16,659 nucleotides of DNA from Oscillatoria sp. SIO1A7 (GTDB taxonomy: Bacteria; Cyanobacteriota; Cyanobacteriia; Cyanobacteriales; Laspinemataceae): positions 64,001-80,659 of the forward strand of contig JAAHFN010000034.1 in the NCBI GenBank assembly GCA_010672965.1, given 5' to 3'. This document shows, one piece after another, positions 2,305 to 16,258 of the stretch (position 1 is its first letter; each line of letters opens with the position of its first letter). A program made the position numbers and the translations under genes. Below the pieces are notes generated by a model. It made no database searches. It had not been told where the DNA came from and worked only from the letters and a program-made list of their open reading frames with translations.

Positions 2305-2432
2305 AAGTTAAAAGTCAAAAGTTAAAAGTTAAAAGTTAAAAGGGAGTTGGTATTTTTAAGTTTTCGCTTTTAACTCACTGTTAGCTATCGCTCTTAACTT
2401 TTGACTTTTAACTTTTAACTTTTGACTTTTTT
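2305..2432. repeat. Large imperfect palindrome in the rpoB-rpoC1 spacer, built from AAAAGTT/AAAAGTC heptamer tandem repeats. Left arm ~2305-2342, right arm ~2393-2432
   Basis: Left arm aagttaaaagtcaaaagttaaaagttaaaagttaaaag is near-perfectly complementary to right arm cttaacttttgacttttaacttttaacttttgactttt. The same heptamer recurs at 7935-7959 and 11547-11680. Confidence 0.8.
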
Positions 2433-2462: not shown

Positions 2463-4502
2463 ATGGCAAAAGTCGAGCAGCGCTTTGATTATGTAAAGAT
2501 TGGGATTGCCTCCCCGGAGCGAATTCGCAAGTGGGGGGAGAGAATACTTCCCAACGGACAGATGGTGGGGGAGGTTCTCAAGCCCGAGACGATAAACTAT
2601 CGCACCCTCAAGCCAGAGATGGACGGTTTGTTTTGCGAGCGCATTTTCGGTCCGGCGAAGGATTGGGAATGCCATTGCGGCAAGTACAAGAGGGTTCGCC
2701 ATCGCGGTATTGTCTGCGAAAGGTGCGGGGTGGAGGTGACCGAATCTCGGGTGCGCCGCCATCGCATGGGATACATTAAATTGGCGGCTCCGGTTGCCCA
2801 CGTCTGGTATCTGAAGGGGATTCCCAGTTATATTTCGATATTGCTGGATATGCCCCTGCGCGATGTGGAGCAAGTGGTTTATTTTAATGCTTACGTCGTT
2901 CTCAGCCAAGAAAATCCGAAGGGTCTTTCCTATAAGCAGCTTTTGACGGAGGATGCTTGGATGGAGATTGAGGATAAGATTTACGGAGACGACCCGGAGT
3001 ATGAGAAGGTGGAGGTGGGTATTGGCGCGGAAGCCCTGCAACGGTTGCTGCAAGACCTTCAGTTACCAGAGATTGCGGAGGAAATCCGGGAGGATATTGC
3101 TAATTCTAAGGGGCAAAAGCGCGCTAAGCTGATTAAGCGGCTGCGGGTTATCGATAATTTCATTGGCACGGAGAGTCTGCCGGAATGGATGGTGCTGTCG
3201 GTGGTTCCGGTGATTCCTCCAGACCTGCGCCCTATGGTGCAGTTGGATGGCGGTCGCTTTGCTACTTCGGATTTAAACGACCTCTATCGCCGGGTGATTA
3301 ATCGCAATAATCGCTTGGCTCGCTTGCAGGAGATTTTGGCACCGGAGATTATTATTCGCAATGAGAAGCGGATGTTGCAAGAGGCGGTGGATGCTCTGAT
3401 TGATAACGGACGGCGGGGGCGGACTGTGGTGGGGGCTAATAACCGACCTCTTAAGTCTTTGTCGGATATTATTGAGGGCAAGCAAGGTCGCTTTCGCCAG
3501 AATTTGTTGGGCAAGCGGGTGGATTATTCGGGGCGATCGGTTATTGTGGTCGGCCCTTCTTTGGAGATGCACCAGTGCGGTTTGCCCAGGGAGATGGCGA
3601 TCGAGCTATTCCAGCCTTTTGTGATTCACAAGTTAATCCGCCAGAATTTGGTGAACAATATTAAGGCCGCCAAAAAACTGATTCAGCGCAACGACCCCAA
3701 TGTTTGGGACGTATTGGAGGAGGTGATTGAGGGGCACCCGGTGATGCTGAACCGCGCTCCCACTTTGCACCGTTTGGGGATTCAAGCTTTTGAGCCGATT
3801 TTGGTGGACGGTAGGGCTATTCAGCTCCATCCTTTGGTTTGTCCCGCTTTTAATGCGGACTTTGATGGAGACCAAATGGCGGTACACGTTCCCCTTTCTT
3901 TGGAGTCTCAAGCGGAGGCGAGGATGCTGATGTTGGCCTCCAATAATGTGATGTCTCCTGCCACGGGCACTCCGATTATTACTCCTTCTCAGGATATGGT
4001 TTTGGGTTGCTATTATTTGACGGCGGAAAATCCTCTGGAACAGGAGGGAGCCGGTCGCTATTTTGCTGGCTTTGACGATGCGGTTGTTGCTTACCAGCAA
4101 AAGGAAATTGGCTTGCACTCTTATGTTTGGGTGCGCTTGGATGTTAATAGTAAGGTGGAGACGGACAATCCCGAGGAGCCCCCAGAGGAGACGGTGCTTT
4201 CTGATGGCAGCCGGATGTTGGTTTATTGGGCGAGAAGCTCTAGCGCCGTTCGTCCCGATGCTTTTTTTCAAGATGAGAAAGATAAGCCGGAGATTGTGTC
4301 CGCTCCCGATGGTTCTAGAGTTAAGCGCTATAGCCTTTATCGGATTCACGAAGATGCTGAAGGACAGATGAGCGCGCTGTTTATGAAGTCGCGCCAAACC
4401 CGCTGCCTTCCTAGTGGCGAGGTTGTTTCTCAGTACGTTCTGACTACTGTCGGTCGGATTATTTTTAATATGGCGATCGATGAGGCTTTGGAGTTGGCGT
4501 AA
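2463..4502 (+). CDS. rpoC1: DNA-directed RNA polymerase gamma subunit, the N-terminal half of the split beta-prime
   Basis: Zn-finger [20 protein letters not shown] and the catalytic [16 protein letters not shown] motif are present. The gene ends at ~680 aa instead of continuing to a full-length ~1400-aa beta-prime, which is the cyanobacterial/plastid split arrangement. ATG at 2463, preceded by an A-rich leader. Confidence 0.95.
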
Positions 4503-4517
4503 TCTAGTTAAAACATT

Positions 4518-4543
4518 GGGTTCTGCTGAAACCCGGTTTTTTT
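4518..4543 (+). terminator. Putative intrinsic terminator 16 nt after the rpoC1 stop
   Basis: gggtt-ctgctga-aaccc is a 5-bp stem with a 7-nt loop. It is followed by gg ttttttt (T7). Confidence 0.4.
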
Positions 4544-4564
4544 GACAATACCTTCGCCATTTTA

Positions 4565-4671
4565 TCGTAGGGAGCGGTTGAACGAAGTGTTGGCATAGCC
4601 AACTCGTGCGAGTAACCCAACGTCAAACCAACGTATTTGCGTTTGTTTCGTGCCTCAACCGCTCCCTACGA
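4565..4671. repeat. 17-bp perfect inverted repeat (tcgtagggagcggttga / tcaaccgctccctacga) enclosing ~73 bp
   Basis: Arms at 4565-4581 and 4655-4671 are exact reverse complements. The interior is non-coding. Confidence 0.7.
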
Positions 4672-4844
4672 GATCGCTCCAGAAACCCAGAAAACCAGAA
4701 ACCCGGTTCTTTGTAACGAGCGTTTCTCACCAACAAGTTAGTTTCTTCTACAAAACCTGCAAGATGGGTATTACAAAGGAGTTTGCGATTCTGGCTCCAG
4801 TTCCCTCAGTCCACCTTGCTTCTGCAATGGAAACTTGCGATCGG

Positions 4845-4940
4845 CGAAGCGCACCTATCCGCGAAGCGCACCTATCCGCGAAGCGCACCTATCCGCGAAG
4901 CGCACCTATCCGCGAAGCGCACCTATCCGCGAAGCGCACC
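4845..4940 (+). repeat. Tandem array of a 17-bp unit (cgaagcgcacctatccg), ~5.7 copies
   Basis: Exact repeats at 4845-4861, 4862-4878, 4879-4895, 4896-4912 and 4913-4929, plus a partial sixth. The array is absent from the paralogous copy at 7339-7706. There are no spacers, so it is not CRISPR. Confidence 0.9.
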
Positions 4941-5052
4941 TATCGCAAGGGTCAGGTAGCTTTTGGCAGCAGTGCTTGGGAGTTATTTCGTCAAGTGGAG
5001 CAGATGAAAAAGAGCGATTTAGTTGAGGTTTTCATCTACCCTTCCCTGGTCG

Positions 5053-5167
5053 GTTATGGCGGGAGCATTTCAATTTCGTATCTAGCCGCCTAACGCCTAA
5101 AGGCGCGGCTACACAAACAAAGCCCTCCGGGCTGTCCCGTTACAAAAGTGAAATGCTCCCGTTATGG
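5053..5167. mobile_element. MITE-like insertion: 101-bp element (5060-5160) with 12-bp perfect TIRs gggagcatttca / tgaaatgctccc, flanked by the 7-bp direct repeat gttatgg (5053-5059 and 5161-5167)
   Basis: The paralogous copy at 7548-7560 reads ggtcg-attctgg-caaacc with no insertion, an empty-site comparison. The interior has short palindromes (agccgc..gcggct, agccc-tcc-gggct) and no ORF. Confidence 0.8.
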
Positions 5168-5402
5168 CAAACCTATAGAGATGAAAGCTAGCTGGCACGG
5201 GTAGGTATGCCGGAGACAAGGGATTTCGTCCCCAATCCGCACAAGAGCGAGAAACCTTGGGCTATATTTTGGGATGCGAACTAACAGTTTGTCAAAGACG
5301 ATAAAGGAAAGACAAGCCACGCATTGGGAGAGGCTTAGCGCATAGCGGGCAACGATCGCGATCGTAACGAACAATATAACAATTGAACGGCGATGCCACC
5401 CT

Positions 5403-5603
5403 TTACAATTCATAGTCAGACTGGGCGATCGCATTAACAATTGCTTGGCGGCACCAGGCAGACTGGCTTATCCCTTGCTGTTGGGATAGAAAGATAACCG
5501 CTTCTTTTTCCTTTGGAAGCAGTTTAACGCTTTGGTGTTGTTTTTTCTCTCCGTCATCGGGTACAAACCATGTTTTTTTTCCGTTGGCTCCTCTTGGATC
5601 CAT
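5403..5603 (-). CDS. Ribbon-helix-helix (CopG/ParD-like) DNA-binding protein, 66 aa
   Basis: The segment SVKLLPKEKEAVIFLSQQQGISQSAWCRQAIVNAI fits the RHH beta-strand/helix/helix pattern: polar residues alternating in the strand, G-x-S/T at the helix-helix turn, and a basic residue at the N-cap. ATG at 5603. No partner toxin ORF lies downstream. Confidence 0.55.
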   Translation of the reverse strand: MDPRGANGKKTWFVPDDGEKKQHQSVKLLPKEKEAVIFLSQQQGISQSAWCRQAIVNAIAQSDYEL

Positions 5604-5649
5604 CGTCTAAGCTCCAAATCGATTAACGCTTCATCAATTTTACATTAAT

Positions 5650-5669
5650 TTGCCGGGTGTTTGCGGCAA
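5650..5669. promoter_or_regulatory. Palindrome ttgccg-N8-cggcaa, ~50 nt upstream of the RHH gene start; a candidate operator
   Basis: 6-bp perfect inverted repeat at 5650-5655 and 5664-5669 in the spacer between the phosphoesterase stop and the RHH start. Confidence 0.25.
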
Positions 5670-5809
5670 ACTCATGTATAAATTTAAAACTTATGTCACA
5701 AATAAAACTGGTCAATTTATACCAGATTTGGTATCAGACATAGAAAAGCGATGGGAGCAAGCCATTGCCAGCCTGTGTCCGGCATAAAGCCTGTGCTTCC
5801 AGTTCCCGA

Positions 5810-6709
5810 CTAATTCGCACCACCAAAAGGAGCGCGATCGGCCAAAAACCACCAAGGTATCGCCGTTACGTCATTACGCCCCAGGTTCCCCAGACCGAAA
5901 TTGACTTCGATTGAGCGTAGCATGCTGTAATGGTTATAGGGTATGGTCACGGTCGTGCCGGCCTGCAGCATATCCCCGATCAGCAGGGTGTAAATGCCGT
6001 AGGGTTCTTCGTAGGGTAGGACCTCATCAAAGGTAATCACGATCGGGGTTTCCGGCGGAAATTTCGACACGGGGTCGTCGCCTAAGAACGCGCTCAGAAA
6101 CGCTGCGATGTTCTCGATTTTGAGGCGGTTGCGATCGTCGGGGTGTCCCGCTAGCTGTTTGGGCGTCAGGCTGTGCCCGTCGTCGATCAGGTTGGGCGTA
6201 TACCAACTGTAATTGGGTAGCTTGCCGTTGGCGAGATCCTGCTCGAACTCGGTGGCGTTGACGATGTTTGCCAGTCGTTCCGGGTTGGTAACAATATTGG
6301 GATACGAAAGAAAGGGAACGTGCTTGCGTGCGAAGTAGCCCTCGTCCGGCGGTATGGTACCGGGATACCCCTGCGCAGTTTCAGTCGTGTACCCGGCAGG
6401 CAGGTCTTGGGCGTAGCACCGCCAGGTAAGATTTTGGGCATCCAGCAGATCCACGATATTGGAGATCGGCACTGATGACTGCGGGTTATCGATCCATTGT
6501 ACATAACCCGGTTCATCGTTACATATACCAAAGGTGTCGCCGCCGATCGAGAGGACGTAGTTGGGCTGCGATGGATGGGTCACACCCATACTGCCGCTTA
6601 AAAAGACCCCCTTTGTGCGTAGTGCATTCATATAAGGATTGGCAAGCACGTTTGCGCGTGTCGCATTTTCCAGCATCACGATCGCGATGCGTTCAAAGGC
6701 AATACTCAT
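5810..6709 (-). CDS. Phosphoesterase family protein (PF04185-type, acid phosphatase / phospholipase C-like), 299 aa
   Basis: The N-terminal block IAIVMLEN...NPYMNALRTKGVFLSGSMGVTHPSQPNYVLSIGGDTFG matches the conserved VVVMEN....APY.N.LA..GA......THPSQPNY signature of this family. ATG at 6709, with GGAG 7 nt upstream on the minus strand. Confidence 0.75.
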   Translation of the reverse strand: MSIAFERIAIVMLENATRANVLANPYMNALRTKGVFLSGSMGVTHPSQPNYVLSIGGDTFGICNDEPGYVQWIDNPQSSVPISNIVDLLDAQNLTWRCYAQDLPAGYTTETAQGYPGTIPPDEGYFARKHVPFLSYPNIVTNPERLANIVNATEFEQDLANGKLPNYSWYTPNLIDDGHSLTPKQLAGHPDDRNRLKIENIAAFLSAFLGDDPVSKFPPETPIVITFDEVLPYEEPYGIYTLLIGDMLQAGTTVTIPYNHYSMLRSIEVNFGLGNLGRNDVTAIPWWFLADRAPFGGAN

Positions 6710-7141
6710 GAGTAGCTCCTGTTAAGTGGGTAGGCAAAATATATAAATTGGGTGCGGCTCTTTGAAAAGACGCTTATCCCAATATAATAAGGAGAAGCTC
6801 AATTTTGCCAAAATACAGCAATCATTTTTCATTTAATTGAAATCAAACACAATTCGGGTGTTAACTAAACTAATTAGGGCTTGCTGTATTAATCTAAAAC
6901 CCAAGCGTAGTAAGGATTTTGGGCTTTTTAACAGCCGTAAAAATGCAAGGATTTTGGGCGATCGCGTGGCCTTAATCCTTGCAATATCTCAATTAAAGGA
7001 CCCTTTGAGGCGATTCCGGGGACTTTCGCCACTATTTTCCAGGCTTATGGCCTCAGAACTGCCTCAATGCGAATTATTCAGTAAGCCCTAATTATTTTAC
7101 AAAAAATAAAGTTAGATTTCCGCTCTCTGCGTAAGTTCTAT

Positions 7142-7203
7142 ATTCAAAACAACTACCTTGACAGGCTACCAGCTAGTAGCCTGTCAAGGTAGTTGTTTTG
7201 AAT
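7142..7203. repeat. Perfect 28-bp inverted repeat with a 6-nt loop (attcaaaacaactaccttgacaggctac / cagcta / gtagcctgtcaaggtagttgttttgaat)
   Basis: Arms at 7142-7169 and 7176-7203 are exact reverse complements. It lies in AT-rich non-coding DNA between the phosphoesterase promoter region and element copy B. Confidence 0.85.
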
Positions 7204-7338
7204 AATTTTGCGATTTCCCCCAAGCTGCTTAATCCCCGATGCCCTTCGGCTCTTCGGCTCTTCGGCCCATTTTGGTAAAAAGCGATTGATTTTGCCACCC
7301 AGCTTGTAACATGGTGGCAGTAGTTTTTAGTTAATTTA

Positions 7339-7706
7339 TTCTACAAAACCTGCAAGATGAGTATTACAAAGGAGTTTGCGATTCTGGCTCCAGTTCCCTC
7401 AGTCCACCTTGCTTCTGCAATGGAAACTTGCGATCGCGAGGGCCAAGTAGCTTTTGGCAGCAATGCTTGGGAGTTATTTCGTCAAGTGGAGCAGATGAAA
7501 AAGAGCTATTTAGTTGAAGTTTTCATCTACCCTTCCCTGGTCGATTCTGGCAAACCTATAGATATGAAAGCCAGTTGGCACGGTCTCTATCTCGATCATG
7601 TCCCCTCTCGCCGGGGTAGGTATCCCGGAGACAAGCGATTTCGTCCCGAATCCACTCTCAGCGAGAAACCAACTTGGGCTATATTTTGGGATGTCTGCGA
7701 ACTAAC
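7339..7706 (+). repeat. Copy B (intact) of the ~360-bp dispersed element
   Basis: See copy A. Direct orientation, 2.6 kb apart. The pair brackets the RHH and phosphoesterase genes. Confidence 0.85.
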
Positions 7707-7824
7707 GGAACTTTCCGAGGAGGAGCATATACCCCTATCAAAATTTCGGGGGACGGATAAAAAATCCGATTATGCCCTGCGCACTGCTCCCAATAGCCCA
7801 ATTATAGTCCAGTATCCCTTCTAA
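7357..7824 (+). CDS. Hypothetical 155-aa ORF carried by element copy B; unknown function, may not be a real gene
   Basis: Intact ORF MSITKEFAILAPVPSVHLASAMETCDREGQVAFGSNAWELFRQ... The matching frame in copy A is broken. Of the four nucleotide differences between copies in the shared 5' part, three are non-synonymous, so purifying selection is not evident. Confidence 0.3.
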   Translation: MSITKEFAILAPVPSVHLASAMETCDREGQVAFGSNAWELFRQVEQMKKSYLVEVFIYPSLVDSGKPIDMKASWHGLYLDHVPSRRGRYPGDKRFRPESTLSEKPTWAIFWDVCELTELSEEEHIPLSKFRGTDKKSDYALRTAPNSPIIVQYPF

Positions 7825-8839: not shown

Positions 8840-9628
8840 CTAGCTCGATGCACTGGTGTAAAAACGCAAGGCAAAGCGCCAGAATGCACTCGAAGTCCAA
8901 GCTAGGGCGATCGCCAGCAACCCAGCACCAGTTATCCAGGTTATCTCGACTCGTCCCAACATTGTCTGAGCTGGCACTGTAGTTAAGAATGCCACGGGCA
9001 CGACAAAGGTAAAGAAAAATCGATAAGCTGCGGGATAGGCGACTATGGGATATCGTCCGGCTTCGAGCAAACCTCGCAGAACTTCGGTTACGTTATAAAC
9101 TTTGACGAACCAGATACTGGTAGAGCCCAGCATAAACCAGAGGCTGTAGAGGCTAGCAATGCCAAATAGCAAGGGTACGGCACTAATAAGATAGTTGGCT
9201 ATTGTCAGTCCCAGCTTGCTCCCTGCATAACCCAGAATTGCCATTCCAAAAACCAAGTCTGGCATTCCCCAGAGGGAAACGGCACGGGTTGACAGCCAGA
9301 ACTGCGAGCTAATCGGCTTTAGCAGCACAAAGTCCAGAGTCCCTTGCTCTACATGGGTTACGATGCGATTTAGATTGGGAACTAAGAACGTGGCAGAAAA
9401 CCCCTGAAGTAGAGTAAAGACTCCTAGTACAATTAAGGCTTCTTCCCATTGCCAACCCGAGAAGGTGTAGCCCGTCCGATAAAATAGAAATAATCCAAAT
9501 AAACTGCCTGCCAGGTTTCCCAAGCTGGTAATGCTGGCGATCGCGAAGTTGATTCGGTATTCCATCTCAGCAGCGATCGCCGCCCCCCAAAACAACCTCA
9601 GCACGCGCAGGTATCGTTTGACGCTCAT
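8840..9628 (-). CDS. ABC-2 family transporter permease (PF06182/DUF990-like), ~262 aa from the ATG at 9628. The track ORF extends to a TTG at 9703
   Basis: Multi-pass hydrophobic protein MSVKRYLRVLRLFWG..EMEYRINF...RFALRFY. It shares the N-terminal R-R-Y/F-x-R-V ... EYR motif and the C-terminal W-R-x-x-L..Y motif with the paralogue at 15461-16258. Confidence 0.65.
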   Translation of the reverse strand: MSVKRYLRVLRLFWGAAIAAEMEYRINFAIASITSLGNLAGSLFGLFLFYRTGYTFSGWQWEEALIVLGVFTLLQGFSATFLVPNLNRIVTHVEQGTLDFVLLKPISSQFWLSTRAVSLWGMPDLVFGMAILGYAGSKLGLTIANYLISAVPLLFGIASLYSLWFMLGSTSIWFVKVYNVTEVLRGLLEAGRYPIVAYPAAYRFFFTFVVPVAFLTTVPAQTMLGRVEITWITGAGLLAIALAWTSSAFWRFALRFYTSASS

Positions 9629-9971
9629 CTGCCCTTTTTCGCAATTGCTTTTCGAGCATAACAGATAAAAGGTCTTGCTCCCCAGCAGGAAGGGCAACGC
9701 CAAAATGTCAATATAGCGCTACGCGCAATTCAAAAGTCATGCATTCAAAAGTCAAAGGTATAATCTGACTAAGGAACGAGCATTTATAAATGTCTTAACT
9801 CATTTGCGTAGTGATATATATAAGCTCTTCTAAAAAATCACTATTTTTACAGGTGTCAATATTTCACAAATAAAAAATTAAACATTAATTATATCAGTTA
9901 GTAAAAAAGAAACCTATTTATTGAATAAAGATATATTTTTTAGTGAATGGGTTGCGGTGAAGATTAGCCCT

Positions 9972-10000
9972 TTGACAATTGACTCTTTTGGATTTAAAGT
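9972..10000 (+). promoter_or_regulatory. Candidate sigma70-type promoter for the methyltransferase gene: TTGACA, 17 nt spacer, TAAAGT
   Basis: ttgaca at 9972-9977 and taaagt at 9995-10000 in a very AT-rich spacer. It would give a ~245-nt leader before the GTG at 10246. Confidence 0.3.
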
Positions 10001-10245
10001 ATAAAAGTCAATTTAGATGCAATAGCAAATAATTGCCTGACAAAGCCGGAAACCTTCGACTTGGCCTGAAATTGGGTTGCCGTGCAACCAGAAATCCAAG
10101 AGAGCCTTAAAAATTGGTATGGGTCTCGGCTCGAACCGGATCCCATACTAATCGAAATCAGCTCGATGATGGCTGCAACAAAATAAAAGAGATCGGCTAC
10201 TTTGAGAATGTTAGATCCCCTTTGTGAACCTTTAGGAGAAAAATT

Positions 10246-11223
10246 GTGAAAAACGAAACCGGAGACCAAAAATTTATCGACCAATTCGAGAAAGATGTCT
10301 TAGAATTTTTTTTCGATAAAGTCCGTGGCAATTTGTGGCCGTATATCTACGGAACTCCTCAAGATGCTGACGACCCAGTTCGAGGGGGCATATTATATAA
10401 CGAAATGCTTGAAGGGGAGAAGGACTATTACCTGTACAAATATGAAGCACAACTTTTCCAAAGTAAAGGAAAGGATATAGCTTCCCTTATAGGTTCTAAT
10501 GCTACTTTTATAGAATTGGGTCCAGGCAGCGAGCAAAGCCTTCGTCTCAAAACGTTACCGTTGCTTCGAGCTTGTACTGACTTACAGGGTTATGTAGGAA
10601 TCGATATTTCCCAATCATTTTTGGATAAAGGGCTTGAGGTGGTTCGGAACGAACTACCCAATATTGAGATTAGTGGTATGCAGCAAGACTTTACCAAATT
10701 AAAAGAGCTACCAGAATTTGACAACCAAGTCATTTTCTTTAAAGGCAGTACGATTGCCAATCTGAGGAGGGATGAGCTGCCAGATTTTATCTCCCAGATT
10801 AAGGAACTAGCGGCTGAAAATCATTATTTGCTTTTAGTTCACGATTGCAACCAAGATGAAGAGTCCTTAATGAAAGCCTACCATAATGAAGGTATGGGAG
10901 TTTTCATGGCAAACATCATGTACCGCATCCATCGCGACATGAATGCAGTGGGAATGGAACCCCAAGCGTTTCGCTACAGCCCGGAATGGGATCCTGAAGG
11001 TCACGATTTAAAACATATTCTCGTTGCAAACAAAGCGCAAAAGTTTGAAATCAAAGGAAAAACTGTAGAAATTGCAGAAGGAGAAAAGTTTCATACTTTG
11101 AGTTCTTTTAAGTATCCAGTTAAAGTGTTTGAGGAAATGCTTGCTCCGTCAGGATATAAACCGATTGATGTTTTTCTAGATGATTCCCAGAGGCTAACTG
11201 CTCATCTTTTTACAGCTTCATAA
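10246..11223 (+). CDS. EgtD-family SAM-dependent amino-acid N-methyltransferase (Methyltransf_33 fold; L-histidine N-alpha-methyltransferase-like), 325 aa
   Basis: Colinear matches to EgtD blocks: YYLYKYEAQL..ASLIGSNATFIELGPGSEQSLR (EgtD YYPTRTEAQIL...TLVELGSGTSEKTR), FFKGSTIANL (EgtD FLGSTIGNL), LLLVHDCNQD, AYHNEGMGVFMANIM, FRYSPEWDPEGHDLKHILVA, GEKFHTLSSFKY. GTG start with aggag 8 nt upstream. GC is ~40% against ~52% for the rpo genes. Confidence 0.75.
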   Translation: MKNETGDQKFIDQFEKDVLEFFFDKVRGNLWPYIYGTPQDADDPVRGGILYNEMLEGEKDYYLYKYEAQLFQSKGKDIASLIGSNATFIELGPGSEQSLRLKTLPLLRACTDLQGYVGIDISQSFLDKGLEVVRNELPNIEISGMQQDFTKLKELPEFDNQVIFFKGSTIANLRRDELPDFISQIKELAAENHYLLLVHDCNQDEESLMKAYHNEGMGVFMANIMYRIHRDMNAVGMEPQAFRYSPEWDPEGHDLKHILVANKAQKFEIKGKTVEIAEGEKFHTLSSFKYPVKVFEEMLAPSGYKPIDVFLDDSQRLTAHLFTAS

Positions 11224-11242
11224 GTCCTGCATAATCTTAAAA

Positions 11243-11290
11243 CAAGACTGAGGCTAGATTGTTCGGCATGACAATCTAGCCTCAGTCTTG
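11243..11290 (+). terminator. Perfect 20-bp stem / 8-nt loop hairpin 20 nt after the methyltransferase stop; no U-tract
   Basis: caagactgaggctagattgt - tcggcatg - acaatctagcctcagtcttg. Confidence 0.4.
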
Positions 11291-11351: not shown

Positions 11352-11510
11352 GAAGCTTGCGAACTATAGCAGTTCTCAAATTGATGTAAGGTGTCTGGGG
11401 CGAAGCATCCCAATATGATAATCCCCGTTCTGTAGCAGAGACAGTCTTGGGGATGCTGTCGCCCCTACCAGATCGTTTATTACACTTATTTGAGAAACGC
11501 TATATCGATC
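11352..11510 (+). repeat. Copy 1 of a ~140-bp nested-stem repeat; candidate structured RNA or MITE core
   Basis: Aligns to 15241-15410. Conserved 5' block gttctcaaattgatgtaaggtgtctggggcgaagcatcYcaatatga, a variable 30-34-nt centre, then ggggatgctgtcgcccctac ... gatcgtttattacacttatttgagaaacgctatat. The outer arm ttctcaaat pairs with atttgagaa; the inner arm ggggcgaagcatc pairs with gatgctgtcgcccc. Confidence 0.6.
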
Positions 11511-11681: not shown

Positions 11682-11770
11682 AGGACTTACGCAACGACAC
11701 TGTGGATAGGGGCAACCACGGGGGGATTGCCCCTACAAACGACCAAATATGGATGTTTTGCGTAAGTCCT
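11682..11770. repeat. Short element bounded by the 13-bp inverted repeats aggacttacgcaa / ttgcgtaagtcct, with an inner ggggcaa-ccacgggggga-ttgcccc hairpin
   Basis: The TIR sequence equals the TIRs of the 247-bp element at 15207-15453. The inner hairpin is the reverse complement of a motif at 15115-15152. It ends 3 nt before the nirD stop codon. Confidence 0.6.
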
Positions 11771-11773
11771 GAA

Positions 11774-12133
11774 CTAATTAATGCCGACCTCAACCCGATC
11801 GCCCGTTACCCGAACTGAGTAAGTGGCAATTTTTACTGTTTCGTCGTCTAAGCATTCGCCGGTGGCCAGATTAAAATTTTGCTTGTAAATCGGTGCGGCG
11901 ACTTTCTTGATGCCATTGCGATCGCCAACAATACCTCGGGACATTACAAATGCTTTGCTAAAGGGATCGTAATTGCTAATGGCATACAGTTCGGCTTCGT
12001 TGCCCACTCGGAAAATCGCCACTTGTTCTTCTTTGACCATAGCGCAGACCCCCGTATTGGGGACGATATCCGACAGCGCGCAAACATCCACCCATTGAGT
12101 AACGCTGTCGCGAACTGGTGATGCTTGAACCAT
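11774..12133 (-). CDS. nirD: Nitrite reductase [NAD(P)H] small subunit (Rieske-like), 119 aa
   Basis: WVDVCALSDIVPNTGVCAMVKEEQVAIFRV...YAISNYDPFSKAFVMSRGIVGD is colinear with E. coli NirD (WKDICKIDDILPETGVCALLGDEQVAIFRP...FAISNIDPF..SVLSRGLI). ATG at 12133 with aGGAG upstream. Confidence 0.85.
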   Translation of the reverse strand: MVQASPVRDSVTQWVDVCALSDIVPNTGVCAMVKEEQVAIFRVGNEAELYAISNYDPFSKAFVMSRGIVGDRNGIKKVAAPIYKQNFNLATGECLDDETVKIATYSVRVTGDRVEVGIN

Positions 12134-12170
12134 TTTTTTCTCCTAAAATTTTTTAATTAGGGCCGCCTAC

Positions 12171-12310
12171 GGGGTGTGGGGTGTGGGGTGTGGGGTGTGA
12201 ATAATTGCTTTTCTTAACTTTTCACCCTTCACTTTTCACTTTTCACTCCTCCGCTCTTCCCAATTTCCCAATTCGCCCATTCCCACACCCTACACCCTAC
12301 ACCCTACACC
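12171..12310. repeat. G-quadruplex-competent (GGGGTGT)x4 array at 12171-12199, with a partially complementary (CACCCTA)x3-4 array at 12282-12310. The arms are separated by TTTTCAC and CCCAATT heptamer repeats. The whole forms a large imperfect palindrome in the nirB-nirD spacer
   Basis: ggggtgtggggtgtggggtgtggggtgtg opposite cccacaccctacaccctacaccctacacc. Each unit pairs with one G-T mismatch, which would be a G-U wobble only in plus-strand RNA. ttttcac x3 and tcccaatt x2 lie between the arms. Confidence 0.8.
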
Positions 12311-12315
12311 TGGGG

Positions 12316-14853
12316 CTACCCCGAAACGCCAGCTAAAACTTTTTCTTCTTCTGTTGCCGGACGCTTTTGGCCTCGTTCTTCAACATAGCTTAGAGTTTCA
12401 TCCGGGCGATCGCTATTGACAAAATGCCGGAAGCGCTTGAGTTTCTCTGGATTTTCTATCGCCGCCTTCCATTCGCAATTATAGGTATCTACTAGGTGCT
12501 GCATCTGAGCTTCCAACTCGTCGCAAATACCTAGGGAATCTTCTATAATTACCTGTTTCAGGTATTCTATTCCCCCTTCGAGTTTATTGAACCAAGTAGC
12601 AGTTCGCTCTAGGCGATCGGCGGTGCGGATATAGAAAATTAAGAAGCGATCCAAATACTTAATCAGAGTTTCTTTATCCAAATCTGTTGCTAGCAGCACG
12701 CCATGTTGGGGCTTCATGCCGCCGTTACCGCACAGAAATAGATTCCAACCTTTTTCAGAAGCAATTATGCCAAAGTCCTTGCCTTGAGCTTCGGCGCACT
12801 CGCGAGAGCAACCAGACACGGCGGACTTCAGTTTGTGGGGCGATCGTATTCCTCGATAGCGCAGTTCTAGCTCTATAGCCAGACCAACGGAATCCTGCAC
12901 GCCATAGCGGCACCAAGTGCTTCCCACGCAAGACTTGACCGTGCGCAGAGCCTTGCCATAAGCATGACCGGATTCAAAACCAGCATCTACCAGTCGCTGC
13001 CAAATCAGTGGCAATTGATCGACCCGGGCTCCAAACATATCGATACGCTGGGCTCCAGTAATTTTCGTATAAAGCCCAAAGTCTTTGGCAATTTCCCCTA
13101 AAACAATGAGTTTATCTGGGGTAATCTCGCCGCCGGGAACGCGGGGGATGACGGAATAGGTGCCGTCTTTCTGAATGTTAGCGAGGAAGTAATCGTTCGT
13201 ATCTTGCAGGCCGGCATGGGGCACATCCATAATATGCTCGTTCCAAGTCGAGGCAAACATGGATGCTACGGCAGGCTTGCAAATTTCGCAGCCCATGCCC
13301 TGGCCGAAACGCTCTATTAGCTCGTCGAAGGTCTTAATCTTATGAAATCGTACCAGATGGTAGAGTTCTTGACGGCTATAGGAGAAATGCTCGCAGAGAT
13401 GATTGTTGACCTCTTTGCCAGCTTTCTTCATCTCTGACTTGAGGATTGTCGTCACTAGGGGCATACAGCCGCCGCAGCCCGTCCCTGCTGTGGTGCATTT
13501 TTTAACGCTAACTGGATCTGTTAGTTGGTTTTCGTGAATTGCGGCAATAATGTCGCCTTTGCTGACATTATTACAAGAACAAATTTGGGCGCTATCCGGC
13601 AGGCTTTCTACTCCTATTGCTGCTGGCTTGCCTTCCCGAGGTGGCATCAGCAAGTCTTCTGGATGGGGGGGCAAGGCAATGTCGTTTTGCACTAATTGGA
13701 GCAGAGTGCCGTAAGCAGAAGCATCGCCAACCAGCATCCCGCCTAAAAGACGGCTGCCATCTTGGTTGAGAACGAGTTTTTTGTAAGTTCCCTGGATTGA
13801 ATCGACGACGGAAATTGTTTTGGAATTTGAAGTGCGAGCAAAAGCATCGCCGAAACTGGCCACATCTACTCCCAAAAGCTTGAGTTTTGTGGACATGTCC
13901 GCACCGGCAAAGGTGCTGCTGGTAAGGCCGTTCAAGGCATCTGCCGCTACCCCAGCCATGTGATAGCCGGGAGCTACTAAGCCGTAGATGCGCTTTTGAT
14001 ACAGGGCGCATTCGCCGATCGCATATATATCTGGGTCGGAGGTTTGGCAATAGTCGTCTATAACTATACCGCCGCGATCGCCTATTTCTAATCCGCAGGC
14101 TCTAGCCAGTTCGTCTCTGGGTCGAATTCCAGCAGAAAAAACAATCTCGTCTGTTTCCAGTTCTTCTCCGTCGGCAAATACCATTTTGACTATTTTGCCA
14201 TTTTCGCTAACAATTTCGGTGGTATTTTTGCTGACATGCACCGAAACCCCTAGCTCTTCTATTTTCTCCCGGAGAATGTTGCCTCCGACGTCATCGACTT
14301 GCACGGGCATCAGTCGCGGCGCAAACTCGACCACATGGGTTTTCAAGCCCATATTTTGCAAAGCATTAGCTGCTTCCAAGCCTAACAGGCCGCCGCCGAT
14401 GACGGTGCCTACTTTGCAATTTTTTGCCCAGGCTCCAATATCCTCTAGGTCTTCAATTGTCCGGTAAACGAAGGCGCCCGGGGCTTCTCTTCCTTTGATG
14501 GGGGGCACAAATGGATAAGAGCCGGTTGCCAGGACAATTTTATCGTAGGGAATTTCTACGCCGTTTTCTGAAGTTACGGTCTTTTCTTCCCGATTAATAG
14601 CAACTGCTTTATCGCCTATATAGATTTTAATCCCGTTTTCTTGGTAAAAACCGGGCTCTACTAAAGACAGATCGCCAGCAGTTTTACCCGTGAAATAGCT
14701 GCTTAGATTTACGCGATCGTAGGCGACGCGAGGTTCCTCACAAAATGCAATCAAATTCCAATTATCGCTGCCATCTTTGCCGACCATCAGTTCTAGAAAC
14801 TTATGGCCCACCATACCATTGCCAATAACAACAAGGTTCTTTTTGGCTTTCAT
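12316..14853 (-). CDS. nirB: Nitrite reductase [NAD(P)H] large subunit, 845 aa
   Basis: N-terminal FAD/NAD fold LVVIGNGMVGHKF. BFD-like [2Fe-2S] motif CSCNN...CTTAGTGCGGC. Sulfite/nitrite-reductase siroheme-[4Fe-4S] motifs SCVGSTWCRYG and SGCSRECAEA. The length matches E. coli NirB (847 aa). ATG at 14853. Confidence 0.9.
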   Translation of the reverse strand: MKAKKNLVVIGNGMVGHKFLELMVGKDGSDNWNLIAFCEEPRVAYDRVNLSSYFTGKTAGDLSLVEPGFYQENGIKIYIGDKAVAINREEKTVTSENGVEIPYDKIVLATGSYPFVPPIKGREAPGAFVYRTIEDLEDIGAWAKNCKVGTVIGGGLLGLEAANALQNMGLKTHVVEFAPRLMPVQVDDVGGNILREKIEELGVSVHVSKNTTEIVSENGKIVKMVFADGEELETDEIVFSAGIRPRDELARACGLEIGDRGGIVIDDYCQTSDPDIYAIGECALYQKRIYGLVAPGYHMAGVAADALNGLTSSTFAGADMSTKLKLLGVDVASFGDAFARTSNSKTISVVDSIQGTYKKLVLNQDGSRLLGGMLVGDASAYGTLLQLVQNDIALPPHPEDLLMPPREGKPAAIGVESLPDSAQICSCNNVSKGDIIAAIHENQLTDPVSVKKCTTAGTGCGGCMPLVTTILKSEMKKAGKEVNNHLCEHFSYSRQELYHLVRFHKIKTFDELIERFGQGMGCEICKPAVASMFASTWNEHIMDVPHAGLQDTNDYFLANIQKDGTYSVIPRVPGGEITPDKLIVLGEIAKDFGLYTKITGAQRIDMFGARVDQLPLIWQRLVDAGFESGHAYGKALRTVKSCVGSTWCRYGVQDSVGLAIELELRYRGIRSPHKLKSAVSGCSRECAEAQGKDFGIIASEKGWNLFLCGNGGMKPQHGVLLATDLDKETLIKYLDRFLIFYIRTADRLERTATWFNKLEGGIEYLKQVIIEDSLGICDELEAQMQHLVDTYNCEWKAAIENPEKLKRFRHFVNSDRPDETLSYVEERGQKRPATEEEKVLAGVSG

Positions 14854-15143
14854 TAGATTATTTGCACTGCCTATTTTTCGGTTCTCACTTCGGGAGATTA
14901 GGGCTCTAGTCTCAAAAATCTTGTATATTTCGCTACATAATTATCCACTCGATGCATTTGTCGAATAACGACTATCTTTTTATTGCATTTATCTGGCTAA
15001 TGGCATTGCTAAAACGATCGGATTTAAATATGAAAATTATCTTAAATTTTTATGGAAACATTTAGTGTGCGGGATGTAATATCAAATCTGTCTAAACAAT
15101 TCCAGTATTTGTAGTGGCAGTCCCCCGTGGCTGCCCCCGAGCC

Positions 15144-15196
15144 GTAGGGGGCTTGGGTTGTAGGGTGTGGGGTGTGAGGTGTGGGGTGTGGGGAGG
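15144..15196. repeat. Second G-rich GGGTGTG-type array, upstream of nirB
   Basis: gtagggggcttgggttgtagggtgtggggtgtgaggtgtggggtgtggggagg. It is preceded by the hairpin gccccc-gagccgta-gggggc (15133-15152). Confidence 0.75.
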
Positions 15197-15206
15197 TTGC
15201 CAGACC

Positions 15207-15453
15207 CAGGACTTATGCAAATTGTCAGATCTAAAGCTGTATATAGCGGTTCTCAAGCGGTTCTCAAATTGATGTAAGGTGTCTGGGGCGAAGCATCTCA
15301 ATATGAGGGTTGCCGTTAGGAGCGCGCGAGATTGTCCAAGGGATGCTGTCGCCCCTACGTTTTCCAAAGCGATCGTTTATTACACTTATTTGAGAAACGC
15401 TATATATGGTGCGCCGCCTAGCACCCTACAAATAGGGTCTTTGCGTAAGTCCT
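15207..15453. mobile_element. 247-bp MITE-like element with 15-bp TIRs caggacttaYgcaaa / tttgcgtaagtcctg, carrying copy 2 of the ~140-bp nested-stem repeat (15241-15410)
   Basis: The left TIR at 15207-15221 and the right TIR at 15439-15453 are reverse complements with one mismatch. There is no ORF. The interior is homologous to 11352-11510. The element sits 7 nt before the permease stop codon at 15461-15463. Confidence 0.65.
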
Positions 15454-15460
15454 GAGACCG

Positions 15461-16258
15461 CTATGCTCCCATTCCCGAATAATGCTGCAATCCTCGACGC
15501 CAGAGAAAGCGATTGCAACCAAAAAATATTCCAATCCAAACCAGGGTTACTAAGAAAGAGCGACCCAAATCTTCTGGCCAACCAATTAACAGAGTTGCTG
15601 GAAAATGTAGAAGGTAGGGGAATGGAGTCCACTGTAGCACTTGTCGCACGGATTCTGGAAAGACCTCTAAGGGGGCAATGTAGCCAGATAAAAATATATA
15701 GAGAAAAAACGAAACCTGCTCGATTGCGGCTGCTCGCTCTATCCAAAAAGCGAACATAGCTAAGGTATATTGTATTAAAAAGCGGAGGATAAATGCCAGC
15801 AACAAGGCCAGACAAAATAGCAAAAACTGTCTGAGACTCGGGAGTACAAATGCTTTGGGATAGAGTCCGAAAAACAATACAATTAAGCCAATCAAGAAGG
15901 GCAAGCGAGCGAGCCTTTCGGAAAGATGGCCTATGAAATGGTGCCATACTGGATCTAGAGGCTGCAAGAGTTTAGGAGAAAGCTTTCCTTGTACTACTTC
16001 TTCTTCAAAGTCCCAGATTACCCAGACAATGGTTAGCTGTCTGACAAAGAAAATGGCGATAAAATAGCGCACGAAGTCAGTGGGAGTCAGTCCGCCGAAT
16101 TGTCCGCTCTCTGCCGCTTGAGTCCAGACGCCCATGAGGATGATGGGTAAGGAACCGGCAAGCATCCATAGGATTAGCTCGGCTCGGTATTCGAGCATGA
16201 AAGCATAGTAGGCGATCGCTAGGGTTTTGGCAACTCTGAAAAATCTGCGCATTTGCAT
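15461..16258 (-). CDS. ABC-2 family transporter permease (PF06182/DUF990-like), 265 aa; paralogue of 8840-9628
   Basis: MQMRRFFRVAKTL..YYAFMLEYRAE... with ~6 hydrophobic spans and the C-terminal WRRGLQHY motif, the same architecture as the other permease. ATG at 16258. Confidence 0.65.
   Translation of the reverse strand: MQMRRFFRVAKTLAIAYYAFMLEYRAELILWMLAGSLPIILMGVWTQAAESGQFGGLTPTDFVRYFIAIFFVRQLTIVWVIWDFEEEVVQGKLSPKLLQPLDPVWHHFIGHLSERLARLPFLIGLIVLFFGLYPKAFVLPSLRQFLLFCLALLLAFILRFLIQYTLAMFAFWIERAAAIEQVSFFLYIFLSGYIAPLEVFPESVRQVLQWTPFPYLLHFPATLLIGWPEDLGRSFLVTLVWIGIFFGCNRFLWRRGLQHYSGMGA

What the first reader, a model, noticed from the sequence alone, without database searches (positions are those of the whole stretch)
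9704..11290. Orphan EgtD-family N-methyltransferase in a low-GC, AT-rich islet, with no EgtB partner
The 325-aa protein has the full EgtD/Methyltransf_33 block structure, including the GSTI(A/G)NL substrate-loop motif. The window contains no sulfoxide synthase (EgtB/OvoA), which in ergothioneine loci is normally adjacent. The gene is ~40% GC, preceded by a ~540-bp very AT-rich spacer and a ~245-nt leader containing local hairpins (for example ggttgc-cgt-gcaacc at 10073-10087). It is on the opposite strand from all neighbours and closed by a 20-bp perfect hairpin. Stand-alone EgtD homologues are known to make other amino-acid betaines, such as hypaphorine-type products, so the substrate here is open. 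This looks like a horizontally acquired small-molecule methylation gene of unknown substrate.
Basis: partly seen in the sequence, partly recalled or inferred. Interest (0 to 1): 0.6.

Follow-up and report, generated by a model that had tools for sequence, protein, structure and literature searches.

The report
Stand-alone non-histidine EgtD-like methyltransferase
This cyanobacterial gene encodes an enzyme built like the histidine methyltransferase of ergothioneine synthesis, but its side-chain pocket is rebuilt, so it most likely turns some other free amino acid into a methylated "betaine" that has not yet been identified.

Summary
ORF 10246-11223 (+) is an intact 325-aa Methyltransf_33 protein with 40% GC. 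It stands alone between minus-strand genes and ends in a perfect 20-bp hairpin.

It is not an ordinary egtD:
- It scores 172 bits against the NCBIfam egtD model, whose cut-off is 290.9.
- The residues that hold the amino-acid backbone are kept (Y56, N166, Y206, S284 of M. smegmatis EgtD).
- The histidine side-chain determinants are replaced: T213 to Met in a loop 2 aa shorter, M252 to His, E282 to Leu.
- One genome carries a canonical egtD (411 bits) beside a sulfoxide synthase and two copies of this type in tandem. The two types are therefore paralogues, not orthologues.

The protein belongs to a clade of 54 sequences, mostly from marine filamentous cyanobacteria. The members I examined share this pocket. 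The gene has no conserved gene neighbour in about 25 loci. Its composition (about 0.40 GC in hosts of 0.35-0.55) and patchy distribution suggest horizontal spread.

The proposed 245-nt leader has no riboswitch match, and its folding is not exceptional.

Best reading: a single-gene, SAM-dependent alpha-N-methyltransferase for a non-histidine amino acid, perhaps making an osmolyte. The substrate remains unknown. A link to Trichodesmium homoserine betaine was tested and got no support.

The parts
10246..11223 (+). Coding sequence of the 325-aa Methyltransf_33 (EgtD-fold) methyltransferase. GTG start, TAA stop.
   Evidence: Found in the ORF list and translation. Pfam PF10017 scores 190.7 bits. TIGR03438 scores 172.1 bits against a 290.9 cut-off. 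The AlphaFold model has pLDDT 92.5, and its best PDB matches are EgtD at TM 0.84-0.88. dN/dS is 0.25 against the closest relative.
10234..10238 (+). Shine-Dalgarno sequence AGGAG, 7 nt before the GTG start.
   Evidence: Read directly from the sequence. It is conserved in L031.
9972..10000 (+). Best promoter-like site, TTGACA-17 nt-TAAAGT. It would give a leader of about 240 nt.
   Evidence: Consensus scan, 10 of 12 matches. In L031 the -35 hexamer is identical and the -10 reads TAGAGT, inside a conserved block, while the AT-rich DNA upstream cannot be aligned. Function has not been shown.
10115..10150 (+). Strongest local hairpin in the putative leader (GGUAUGGGUC...GAUCCCAUACU).
   Evidence: Predicted by folding. 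In L031 it is present with an even better stem. The leader as a whole folds no better than shuffled sequence, z = -1.09, and has no Rfam match.
9629..9971 (.). AT-rich divergent intergenic DNA between the ABC-2 permease gene (8840-9628, minus strand) and the methyltransferase promoter region.
   Evidence: GC is 0.28 over 9716-9960. Positions 9716-9817 are missing in L031, and 9818-9960 aligns poorly.
11243..11290 (.). Perfect 20-bp hairpin with an 8-nt loop, starting 20 nt after the stop codon. It is a probable transcript end or stabiliser shared by the converging methyltransferase and nirDB transcripts.
   Evidence: Inverted repeat I1. Folding energy is -36.3 kcal/mol (z = -7.0) on the + strand and -41.9 kcal/mol (z = -8.6) on the - strand, where it is followed by UUUU. 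The scan does not call it a canonical terminator, because there is no T run on the + strand. It is conserved in L031 and found in no other locus.

Best explanation
The gene encodes a working SAM-dependent alpha-N-methyltransferase with the two-domain EgtD fold. It belongs to a separate subfamily, not to the histidine-specific EgtD.

Shown:
- The fold is that of EgtD.
- The residues that hold the carboxylate and alpha-amino group of a free amino acid are conserved. In window numbering these are Y35, Y61, N172, Y212 and S287, matching EgtD Y39, Y56, N166, Y206 and S284.
- The histidine side-chain pocket is replaced: T213 to M217 in a loop 2 aa shorter, N217 to M221, M252 to H257, E282 to L285, and F47 to Y51. 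An 8-aa insertion (TPQDADDP, residues 37-44) is added.
- The gene is under purifying selection.
- It is solitary in nearly every genome that carries it.

Inferred:
- It is transcribed alone from its own promoter near 9972-10000, translated from GTG, and its transcript ends at the 20-bp hairpin.
- It methylates the alpha-amino group of a free L-amino acid other than histidine, probably up to the trimethyl betaine. No partner enzyme is needed, because the substrate is a common metabolite.
- Most carriers are marine or hypersaline mat-forming cyanobacteria, and one locus lies among MscS channel genes. The product may therefore serve as a compatible solute.
- The gene spreads horizontally among cyanobacteria.
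For: Family and fold: PF10017 scores 190.7 bits. The model has pLDDT 92.5 and pTM 0.88. EgtD structures are the only close matches (TM 0.84-0.88), and the next best are generic methyltransferases at about 0.45.

Not EgtD:
- TIGR03438 scores 172.1 against a 290.9 cut-off, and nine other clade members score 110-170.
- Three independent alignments (phmmer, MAFFT, hhalign) give the same residue mapping.
- The residue roles come from PMC8593015. The PDB entry 4pip, 'EgtD-M252V,E282A in complex with tryptophan', shows that positions 252 and 282 set specificity.
- L001 holds an OvoA-type sulfoxide synthase (563 bits), a canonical EgtD (411 bits) and two paralogues of this clade (151 and 170 bits) in tandem.
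- In a neighbour-joining tree the clade has 54 of 194 sequences and contains none of the 18 sequences with the canonical pocket signature.
- 33 of about 38 close members carry the identical pocket MMHHLSS.

Solitary gene: no conserved neighbour was found. No EgtB-like sequence occurs in the window or in any other locus.

Selection: dN/dS is 0.25, and none of the 20 amino-acid changes against L031 falls in the pocket.

Horizontal spread: GC3 is 0.377 against 0.46-0.65 for the other window genes. The gene has about 0.40 GC in hosts of 0.35-0.55. Its distribution is patchy, with 11 close loci among 185,579 species genomes.
Against: No substrate has been demonstrated. The pocket composition (Met, Met, His, His, Leu, Ser, plus Tyr) does not point to one amino acid.

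The osmolyte role rests only on habitat and on one MscS-flanked locus.

The one place where the gene has family neighbours (L001) is an ergothioneine locus, so a role connected to histidine-derived thiols cannot be excluded.

I could not inspect model coordinates, so pocket geometry is inferred from alignment alone.

Low GC3 could also reflect low expression rather than foreign origin.

The genome of the window organism is unavailable, so an egtB elsewhere cannot be ruled out.
Confidence: 0.55

Rival explanations
1. It is a divergent but genuine histidine N-alpha-methyltransferase (hercynine synthase). It would feed an EgtB, OvoA-type or EanB enzyme encoded elsewhere in the genome, or make hercynine as an end product.
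For: NCBI names several homologues 'L-histidine N(alpha)-methyltransferase'. The best solved-structure relative is EgtD. In L001 two clade members lie directly beside egtB-egtD. Cyanobacteria are known ergothioneine producers (PMC9516567).
Against: It falls well below the curated egtD cut-off, 172 against 290.9, whereas the true cyanobacterial EgtD scores 411. E282, T213 and M252 are all replaced, and residues that are invariant in 20 canonical EgtDs (T216, E285 and G214 in L001 numbering) are lost. It coexists with a canonical EgtD in one genome. EgtB is absent from about 25 other loci.
Confidence: 0.15
2. It is a tailoring enzyme of specialised metabolism, like EasF. It would add one or two methyl groups to a modified amino acid or natural-product intermediate, not make a bulk betaine.
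For: The family includes EasF, which methylates dimethylallyl-tryptophan; the TIGR03439 match is 115.6 bits. The hosts are natural-product-rich marine filamentous cyanobacteria. In Hormoscilla (L016) a related gene is followed by a sulfotransferase and an EamA exporter.
Against: No NRPS, PKS, prenyltransferase or other biosynthetic gene is a conserved neighbour in any of about 25 loci. The EasF score is below its 205.55 cut-off. The free-amino-acid backbone binders are all conserved.
Confidence: 0.2
3. It is a decaying or functionless horizontally acquired gene.
For: It has atypical GC, sits in an AT-rich, repeat-rich region, and has no partner genes.
Against: The reading frame is intact with a good Shine-Dalgarno sequence. 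dN/dS is 0.25 against a relative at 94.7% nucleotide identity. 83 columns are invariant across 30 homologues. The structure model is confident.
Confidence: 0.03

Closest known systems
EgtD, L-histidine N-alpha-methyltransferase of ergothioneine biosynthesis (M. smegmatis / M. tuberculosis; PDB 4pim, 4pio, 4uy7, 7scf; TIGR03438)
   Same: The two-domain fold is the same (TM 0.84-0.88). So are the SAM-binding Gly-rich motif, the GSTIxNL loop with N166, and the carboxylate binders Y56, Y206 and S284. By analogy, the chemistry is probably the same: stepwise methylation of the alpha-amino group of a free amino acid.
   Different: Sequence identity is 23-28%, and the score is below the equivalog cut-off. 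The imidazole-recognising residues E282, T213 and M252 are replaced by Leu, Met (in a shortened loop) and His. The N-terminal lid region carries an 8-aa insertion. There is no linked sulfoxide synthase. It occurs as an additional paralogue beside a true EgtD in one genome.
Engineered EgtD M252V/E282A (PDB 4pip) and natural aromatic amino-acid betaine synthases of the same family (Vit et al. 2015, ChemBioChem 16:119; cited in PMC9516567; details recalled from memory)
   Same: They show that changing positions 252 and 282 retargets the enzyme to another amino acid while the chemistry stays the same. The window protein differs from EgtD at exactly these positions.
   Different: The Trp- and Tyr-directed variants carry small residues (Val, Ala) that enlarge the pocket. 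Here the replacements are His and Leu, which are about as large as the originals. An indole-sized substrate is therefore not obviously favoured.
EasF, dimethylallyl-tryptophan N-methyltransferase of ergot alkaloid synthesis (TIGR03439)
   Same: Same Pfam family. It is an example of a family member that works outside ergothioneine synthesis.
   Different: The score is 115.6 bits against a 205.55 cut-off. EasF lies in a fungal biosynthetic gene cluster, whereas this gene is solitary.
Glycine sarcosine / dimethylglycine N-methyltransferases (GSMT/SDMT) that make glycine betaine in halophilic cyanobacteria
   Same: If the osmolyte reading is right, the logic is the same: SAM-dependent stepwise N-methylation of a common amino acid to a betaine, with no other pathway enzymes.
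   Different: The methyltransferase family is different and lacks the EgtD substrate domain (GSMT structure 5hii gives TM 0.45 only). GSMT and SDMT work as a pair, whereas this gene stands alone.

Membership tests
Methyltransf_33 (PF10017) superfamily / EgtD fold | Significant match to the family profile over the full domain, and the two-domain EgtD fold. | tested here: met
   The score is 190.7 bits against a cut-off of 23, covering profile positions 25-303 of 304. Foldseek gives TM 0.84-0.88 to EgtD structures.
Methyltransf_33 (PF10017) superfamily / EgtD fold | Residues that bind the alpha-carboxylate and alpha-amino group of a free amino acid (Y56, Y206, S284, N166, G161). | tested here: met
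   All are conserved in the window protein and in nearly all 194 aligned family members. Residue roles are taken from PMC8593015.
EgtD (histidine-specific; TIGR03438 equivalog) | Score above the curated equivalog cut-off. | tested here: not met
   The score is 172.1 bits against 290.9. A genuine cyanobacterial EgtD in L001 scores 411.3.
EgtD (histidine-specific; TIGR03438 equivalog) | Imidazole-recognising residues E282, T213 (water-mediated) and M252. | tested here: not met
   E282 is replaced by L285, T213 by M217 in a loop 2 aa shorter, and M252 by H257. phmmer, MAFFT and hhalign agree on this mapping.
EgtD (histidine-specific; TIGR03438 equivalog) | Genomic or genome-wide association with a sulfur-inserting enzyme (EgtB, OvoA-type, EanB or MES). 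| tested here: inconclusive
   None occurs in the window or within 8-10 kb in about 25 related loci. It is adjacent only in L001/L002/L008, where a canonical EgtD is also present. The rest of the window's genome is not available.
EgtD (histidine-specific; TIGR03438 equivalog) | Histidine trimethylation activity. | not testable with these tools
   This needs an enzyme assay.
EasF (TIGR03439) | Score above the curated cut-off, and location in an ergot-type cluster. | tested here: not met
   The score is 115.6 bits against 205.55. There are no cluster neighbours.
SAM/SAH or other riboswitch in the leader | Match to an Rfam covariance model, or an unusually stable conserved fold. | tested here: not met
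   No Rfam match falls in 9600-10245, even at E <= 10. The leader fold z-score is -1.09. The closest relative tolerates a 92-bp insertion in the leader.

The most novel reading that the evidence does not exclude
This clade is the missing single-gene synthase for an amino-acid betaine used by marine and hypersaline cyanobacteria as a compatible solute. One candidate is glutamate betaine, which Mackay et al. 1984 reported in halophilic cyanobacteria (cited in PMC6753628 and PMC4390839). No paper I could search names a biosynthetic gene for it. If true, the Met/His/Leu/Ser pocket would define a new substrate specificity in the EgtD fold.
Probability: 0.2. Interest if true: 0.7.

Novelty: new variant of a known kind. 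Interest (0 to 1): 0.42.

Why it matters
Automatic annotation calls these proteins 'L-histidine N(alpha)-methyltransferase'. That name would wrongly imply ergothioneine synthesis in the organisms that carry them.

The evidence here separates a coherent subfamily from true EgtD. It occurs mostly in marine filamentous cyanobacteria, and its pocket is rebuilt but strongly conserved.

If its product is a betaine osmolyte, it would assign a gene to a class of cyanobacterial nitrogen-rich solutes whose synthesis is unassigned. It would also give a one-gene route to a new betaine for biotechnology.

The wider alignment shows dozens of different pocket signatures in this family, so amino-acid betaine chemistry is probably much broader than the three or four characterised enzymes suggest.

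Tried and rejected
1. Homoserine betaine link. I suspected that the 34-38% identical sister group (Trichodesmium MAG, Okeania, Moorena) might be the unknown homoserine-betaine synthase of Trichodesmium. A homologue search seeded with the Trichodesmium-MAG protein returned no T. erythraeum IMS101 entry and no contig of chromosome size. The MAG contig itself is only 2.8 kb. No held paper names a gene, and Pade et al. 2016 is not held. The link is unsupported.

2. Riboswitch in the leader. Rfam gave no match at E <= 10, folding was unexceptional, and the relative carries a 92-bp insertion there.

3. NtcA control of the methyltransferase. There is no GTA-N8-TAC site in its spacer.

4. Insertion of the methyltransferase-nirDB block into an ABC-2 permease operon. 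Two permease genes, at 8840-9628 and 15461-16258, suggested this. However, they show no significant similarity to each other, and an 80% identical permease sits in an unrelated context in another genome. The idea is not supported.

5. Carriage on plasmids. Only canonical EgtDs at 30% identity or less were found on plasmids.

6. Finding the source genome. Exact-match look-ups of three window proteins found nothing. The best genome hit in the species collection is 73% identical.

7. Literature searches. 'Methyltransf_33', 'EgtD-like', 'EgtD + hypaphorine' and 'PF10017' gave nothing useful.

8. The afdb50 fold library was not available.
Full report
WHAT IS THERE

ORF 10246-11223 on the + strand encodes 325 aa from a GTG start, which lies 7 nt after an AGGAG Shine-Dalgarno sequence. 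The N-terminus (V/M-x-x-x-T-G-D-x-K) is shared by its homologues, and several of them also use GTG, so the start is right.

Pfam places the protein in Methyltransf_33 (PF10017, 190.7 bits, residues 46-323).

The window comes from a cyanobacterium:
- It carries rpoB and the cyanobacterial split rpoC1 (gamma subunit).
- The neighbouring ABC-2 permease is 77-80% identical to proteins of Microcoleus, Coleofasciculus, Nostoc and Chroococcidiopsis.

The immediate neighbours are on the minus strand. Upstream and divergent is the permease at 8840-9628; 262-aa homologues show it starts at ATG 9628, not at the TTG of the mechanical ORF. Downstream and convergent are nirD (11774-12133) and nirB (12316-14853). 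The gene therefore cannot be part of an operon with either neighbour.

The compositional claims hold:
- Gene GC is 0.403 and GC3 is 0.377, against 0.46-0.65 for all other genes in the window.
- The spacer has 0.34-0.36 GC, with a core of 0.28.

The 3' hairpin also holds. It has 20-nt arms that are 100% complementary and an 8-nt loop, with z = -7.0. No sulfoxide synthase occurs in the window.

IS IT EgtD?

No, by four independent lines.

(i) Model scores. The curated NCBIfam equivalog model for EgtD gives 172.1 bits against a cut-off of 290.9, and EasF gives 115.6 against 205.55. Nine other members of the clade score 110-170 bits.

(ii) Pocket residues. Residue mapping onto M. smegmatis EgtD is identical by phmmer, MAFFT and profile-profile hhalign against 20 canonical EgtDs (probability 100%, 23% identity).
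- According to PMC8593015, Y56, Y206 and S284 bind the substrate carboxylate, and N166 binds the alpha-amino group. A water held by T213 contacts the imidazole, and that paper also lists E282 among the important EgtD residues.
- The PDB entry 'EgtD-M252V,E282A in complex with tryptophan' shows that positions 252 and 282 set specificity.
- In the window protein the backbone binders are kept: Y61, Y212, S287 and N172, plus Y35, which matches Y39.
- The side-chain positions are changed: T213 to M217 in a loop two residues shorter, N217 to M221, M252 to H257, E282 to L285, V283 to S286, and F47 to Y51.
- An 8-residue insertion (TPQDADDP, residues 37-44) sits after the Y39-equivalent.

(iii) Paralogy. 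In 'Sphaerospermopsis' SIO1G1/SIO1G2 (L001, L002, L008) a single locus holds four relevant genes in a row:
- an OvoA-N-terminal-type sulfoxide synthase (563 bits), the type that a small group of cyanobacteria recruited for ergothioneine synthesis (PMC9516567);
- a canonical EgtD (411 bits);
- two tandem genes of the window's type (151 and 170 bits).
A genome that keeps a true EgtD and this type side by side is using them for different things.

(iv) Phylogeny. I aligned 194 family members, including the 150 best representatives from an exhaustive search of 1.84 billion proteins.
- The window protein falls in a clade of 54 sequences that contains none of the 18 sequences with the canonical T-N-M-x-E pocket.
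- 33 of about 38 close members (59-94% identity) carry the identical signature M-M-H-H-L-S-S.
- A sister group at 34-38% identity (Moorena, Okeania, Dapis, Lyngbya aestuarii, Hormoscilla, Rivularia, a Trichodesmium MAG, Ca. Albibeggiatoa) keeps x-x-H-H-(L/M/F)-S-S.

STRUCTURE

An AlphaFold2 model built on a 65-sequence alignment is confident (pLDDT 92.5, pTM 0.88). Foldseek against the PDB returns only EgtD structures as close matches (TM 0.84-0.88, rmsd 2.4-2.9 A over about 320 columns, 22-24% identity). Generic class-I methyltransferases follow at TM about 0.45.

The fold, the SAM site and the backbone-binding site are those of EgtD. Only the side-chain pocket and an N-terminal loop differ.

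GENOMIC CONTEXT ELSEWHERE

I examined about 30 loci with 8-10 kb flanks.
- All-against-all clustering of their ORFs found no gene family that accompanies the methyltransferase.
- EgtB-like sequence is absent from all loci except the SIO1G1/2 locus.
- Neighbours are housekeeping or unrelated genes: Wzy_C, aconitase, alpha-amylase-family, histidine kinase, Aminotran_3, MotA/ExbB, LrgAB.

The gene is therefore a one-gene unit wherever it occurs. This fits an enzyme that acts on a common primary metabolite with a common cofactor.

Two contexts are suggestive but anecdotal:
- The SIO1G1 locus is embedded among three MscS mechanosensitive-channel genes.
- In Hormoscilla a sister-group gene is followed by a sulfotransferase and an EamA exporter.

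HORIZONTAL ORIGIN

- The gene's GC3 is the lowest in the window by a clear margin.
- Across 14 host loci the gene stays near 0.35-0.43 GC (0.50 in one lineage), while the flanks range from 0.35 to 0.55. It is below its host in the window, L003, L004, L005, L007, L010 and L012.
- A scan of one genome for each of 185,579 species found only 11 close and 11 sister-group loci. These are scattered over Oscillatoriales-type genera and Nostocales-type genera (Calothrix rhizosoleniae, Rivularia), plus one gammaproteobacterium.
- A 50% identical copy lies in a Pseudomonadota MAG.

This pattern favours repeated lateral transfer, though low expression could contribute to the low GC3. No copy was found on sequenced plasmids.

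CLOSEST RELATIVE AND THE NON-CODING PARTS

A 3-kb metagenome contig (L031) has the same divergent permease-methyltransferase layout.
- The genes are 95.3% and 94.7% identical at nucleotide level. dN/dS for the methyltransferase is 0.25, with 20 amino-acid changes, none at a pocket position. The gene is therefore under purifying selection.
- In the spacer, the permease-proximal 90 bp are conserved, 9716-9817 is absent from L031, and the AT-rich 9818-9960 barely aligns.
- A block from about 9961 to 10165 and the last 65 nt before the start codon are again conserved. This block includes the best promoter-like site of the region: TTGACA-17-TAAAGT at 9972-10000, which reads TTGACA...TAGAGT in L031.
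- A leader of about 240 nt is therefore plausible but unproven.

The leader is not a known riboswitch, and several results speak against any tightly structured regulatory RNA there:
- No Rfam family matches 9600-10245, even at E <= 10.
- Its predicted folding energy is ordinary (z = -1.09; 25 of 200 shuffles fold as well).
- L031 carries a 92-bp repeat-element insertion within the leader.
- A stronger hairpin at 10115-10150 is conserved.

The 3' hairpin is conserved in L031 and occurs in no other locus. It lacks a U tract on the + strand but is followed by UUUU on the minus strand. It may therefore terminate the converging nirDB transcript at least as well as the methyltransferase transcript.

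MECHANISM AND FUNCTION

Shown: an intact, selected, EgtD-fold enzyme with a conserved SAM and amino-acid-backbone site and a rebuilt, clade-conserved side-chain pocket. It is solitary and is mostly found in marine or hypersaline filamentous cyanobacteria.

Inferred: it methylates the alpha-amino group of a free L-amino acid other than histidine. By analogy with EgtD (N166 retained), methylation probably proceeds to the trimethyl betaine.

The pocket has Tyr, His and Ser next to Met, Met and Leu, and is about the size of the EgtD pocket. That does not suit an indole-sized ring and could fit a mid-sized polar or amphipathic side chain. This is a guess, and I could not inspect coordinates.

Cyanobacteria are known to accumulate amino-acid betaines as compatible solutes:
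- glutamate betaine in halophilic strains (Mackay 1984);
- homoserine betaine in Trichodesmium (Pade 2016).
I found no paper naming genes for either.

I tested the homoserine-betaine idea through phyletic distribution and it got no support. T. erythraeum IMS101 did not appear among homologues of the sister group.

VERDICT

The regulatory-leader suggestion is not supported.

This is a new variant of a known kind of enzyme. It has moderate interest on present evidence, and higher interest if the product proves to be one of the unassigned cyanobacterial betaines.

Noticed in passing
window 2463-5800: rpoC1 (gamma subunit, complete, 679 aa) is not followed by rpoC2, which from memory normally completes the cyanobacterial rpoB-rpoC1-rpoC2 operon. 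Instead there is repeat-rich DNA holding a 147-aa ORF with no family match. This is either a genuine rearrangement or an assembly join.
   Followed up: partly
window 4823-4958; 4736-5060 and 7329-7551: A 17-bp unit (ATCCGCGAAGCGCACCT) is repeated six times in tandem. It lies inside a segment of about 330 bp that recurs 2.5 kb downstream at 93-97% identity. The two copies flank a phosphoesterase gene (5810-6709, minus strand) and give two paralogous small ORFs, 4650-5093 and 7357-7824.
   Followed up: partly
window 11365-11505 and 15253-15405: Two direct copies of a nested-palindrome element of about 140 bp (MITE-like; fold -54.9 kcal/mol, z = -5.2) flank the nirD-nirB operon. G-rich heptamer runs (GGGGTGT) lie at 12168-12200 and 15145-15191.
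   Followed up: partly
window 11682-11770 and 15424-15453; L031 leader: A small inverted-repeat element (AGGACTTACGCAA ... TTGCGTAAGTCCT) occurs downstream of nirD, and one arm recurs near 15424-15453. The same element makes up a 92-bp insertion in the methyltransferase leader of the close relative L031.
   Followed up: no
window 11774-14853, 14923-14936: The window carries an NADH-type assimilatory nitrite reductase, nirBD (NirB 1306 bits, NirD 129.5 bits). From memory, cyanobacteria usually use the ferredoxin enzyme NirA. A single NtcA-type GTA-N8-TAC site lies about 70 nt upstream of the nirB start, but 1.4 such sites per window are expected by chance.
   Followed up: partly
window 2305-2430: The rpoB-rpoC1 spacer (GC 0.27) is a 41-nt-arm inverted repeat built from AAAAGTT/AAAAGTC heptamers. 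The same heptamer appears twice in the methyltransferase spacer, at about 9733-9760.
   Followed up: no
window 7141-7204: A 64-bp palindrome: 32-nt arms, 97% complementary, with no spacer.
   Followed up: no
L001 7514-12384 (also L002, L008): The gene order is: OvoA-type sulfoxide synthase, canonical egtD, then two tandem paralogues of the window's type. A 43-aa relic that is 46% identical to canonical EgtD sits between the two paralogues (11062-11190). The whole block lies among three MscS channel genes.
   Followed up: partly
L016 5848-8834: In a Hormoscilla MAG the sister-group methyltransferase is followed on the same strand by a Sulfotransfer_1 gene and an EamA-family transporter. This hints at a sulfated, exported product with a hydroxyl group.
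   Followed up: no
L007 and L024 (MAG P01_G01_bin.54): One MAG carries both a close-clade copy (66% identical) and a sister-group copy (37% identical), on different contigs. The two groups may therefore not be functionally redundant.
   Followed up: no
family-wide alignment: Among the 150 nearest 50%-identity representatives of Methyltransf_33, the seven pocket positions show dozens of distinct signatures, for example QGHVNNS, HSHVDNS, LILPVNC and AMMHWNS. The backbone binders are almost invariant. This suggests many uncharacterised substrate specificities in the family.
   Followed up: no
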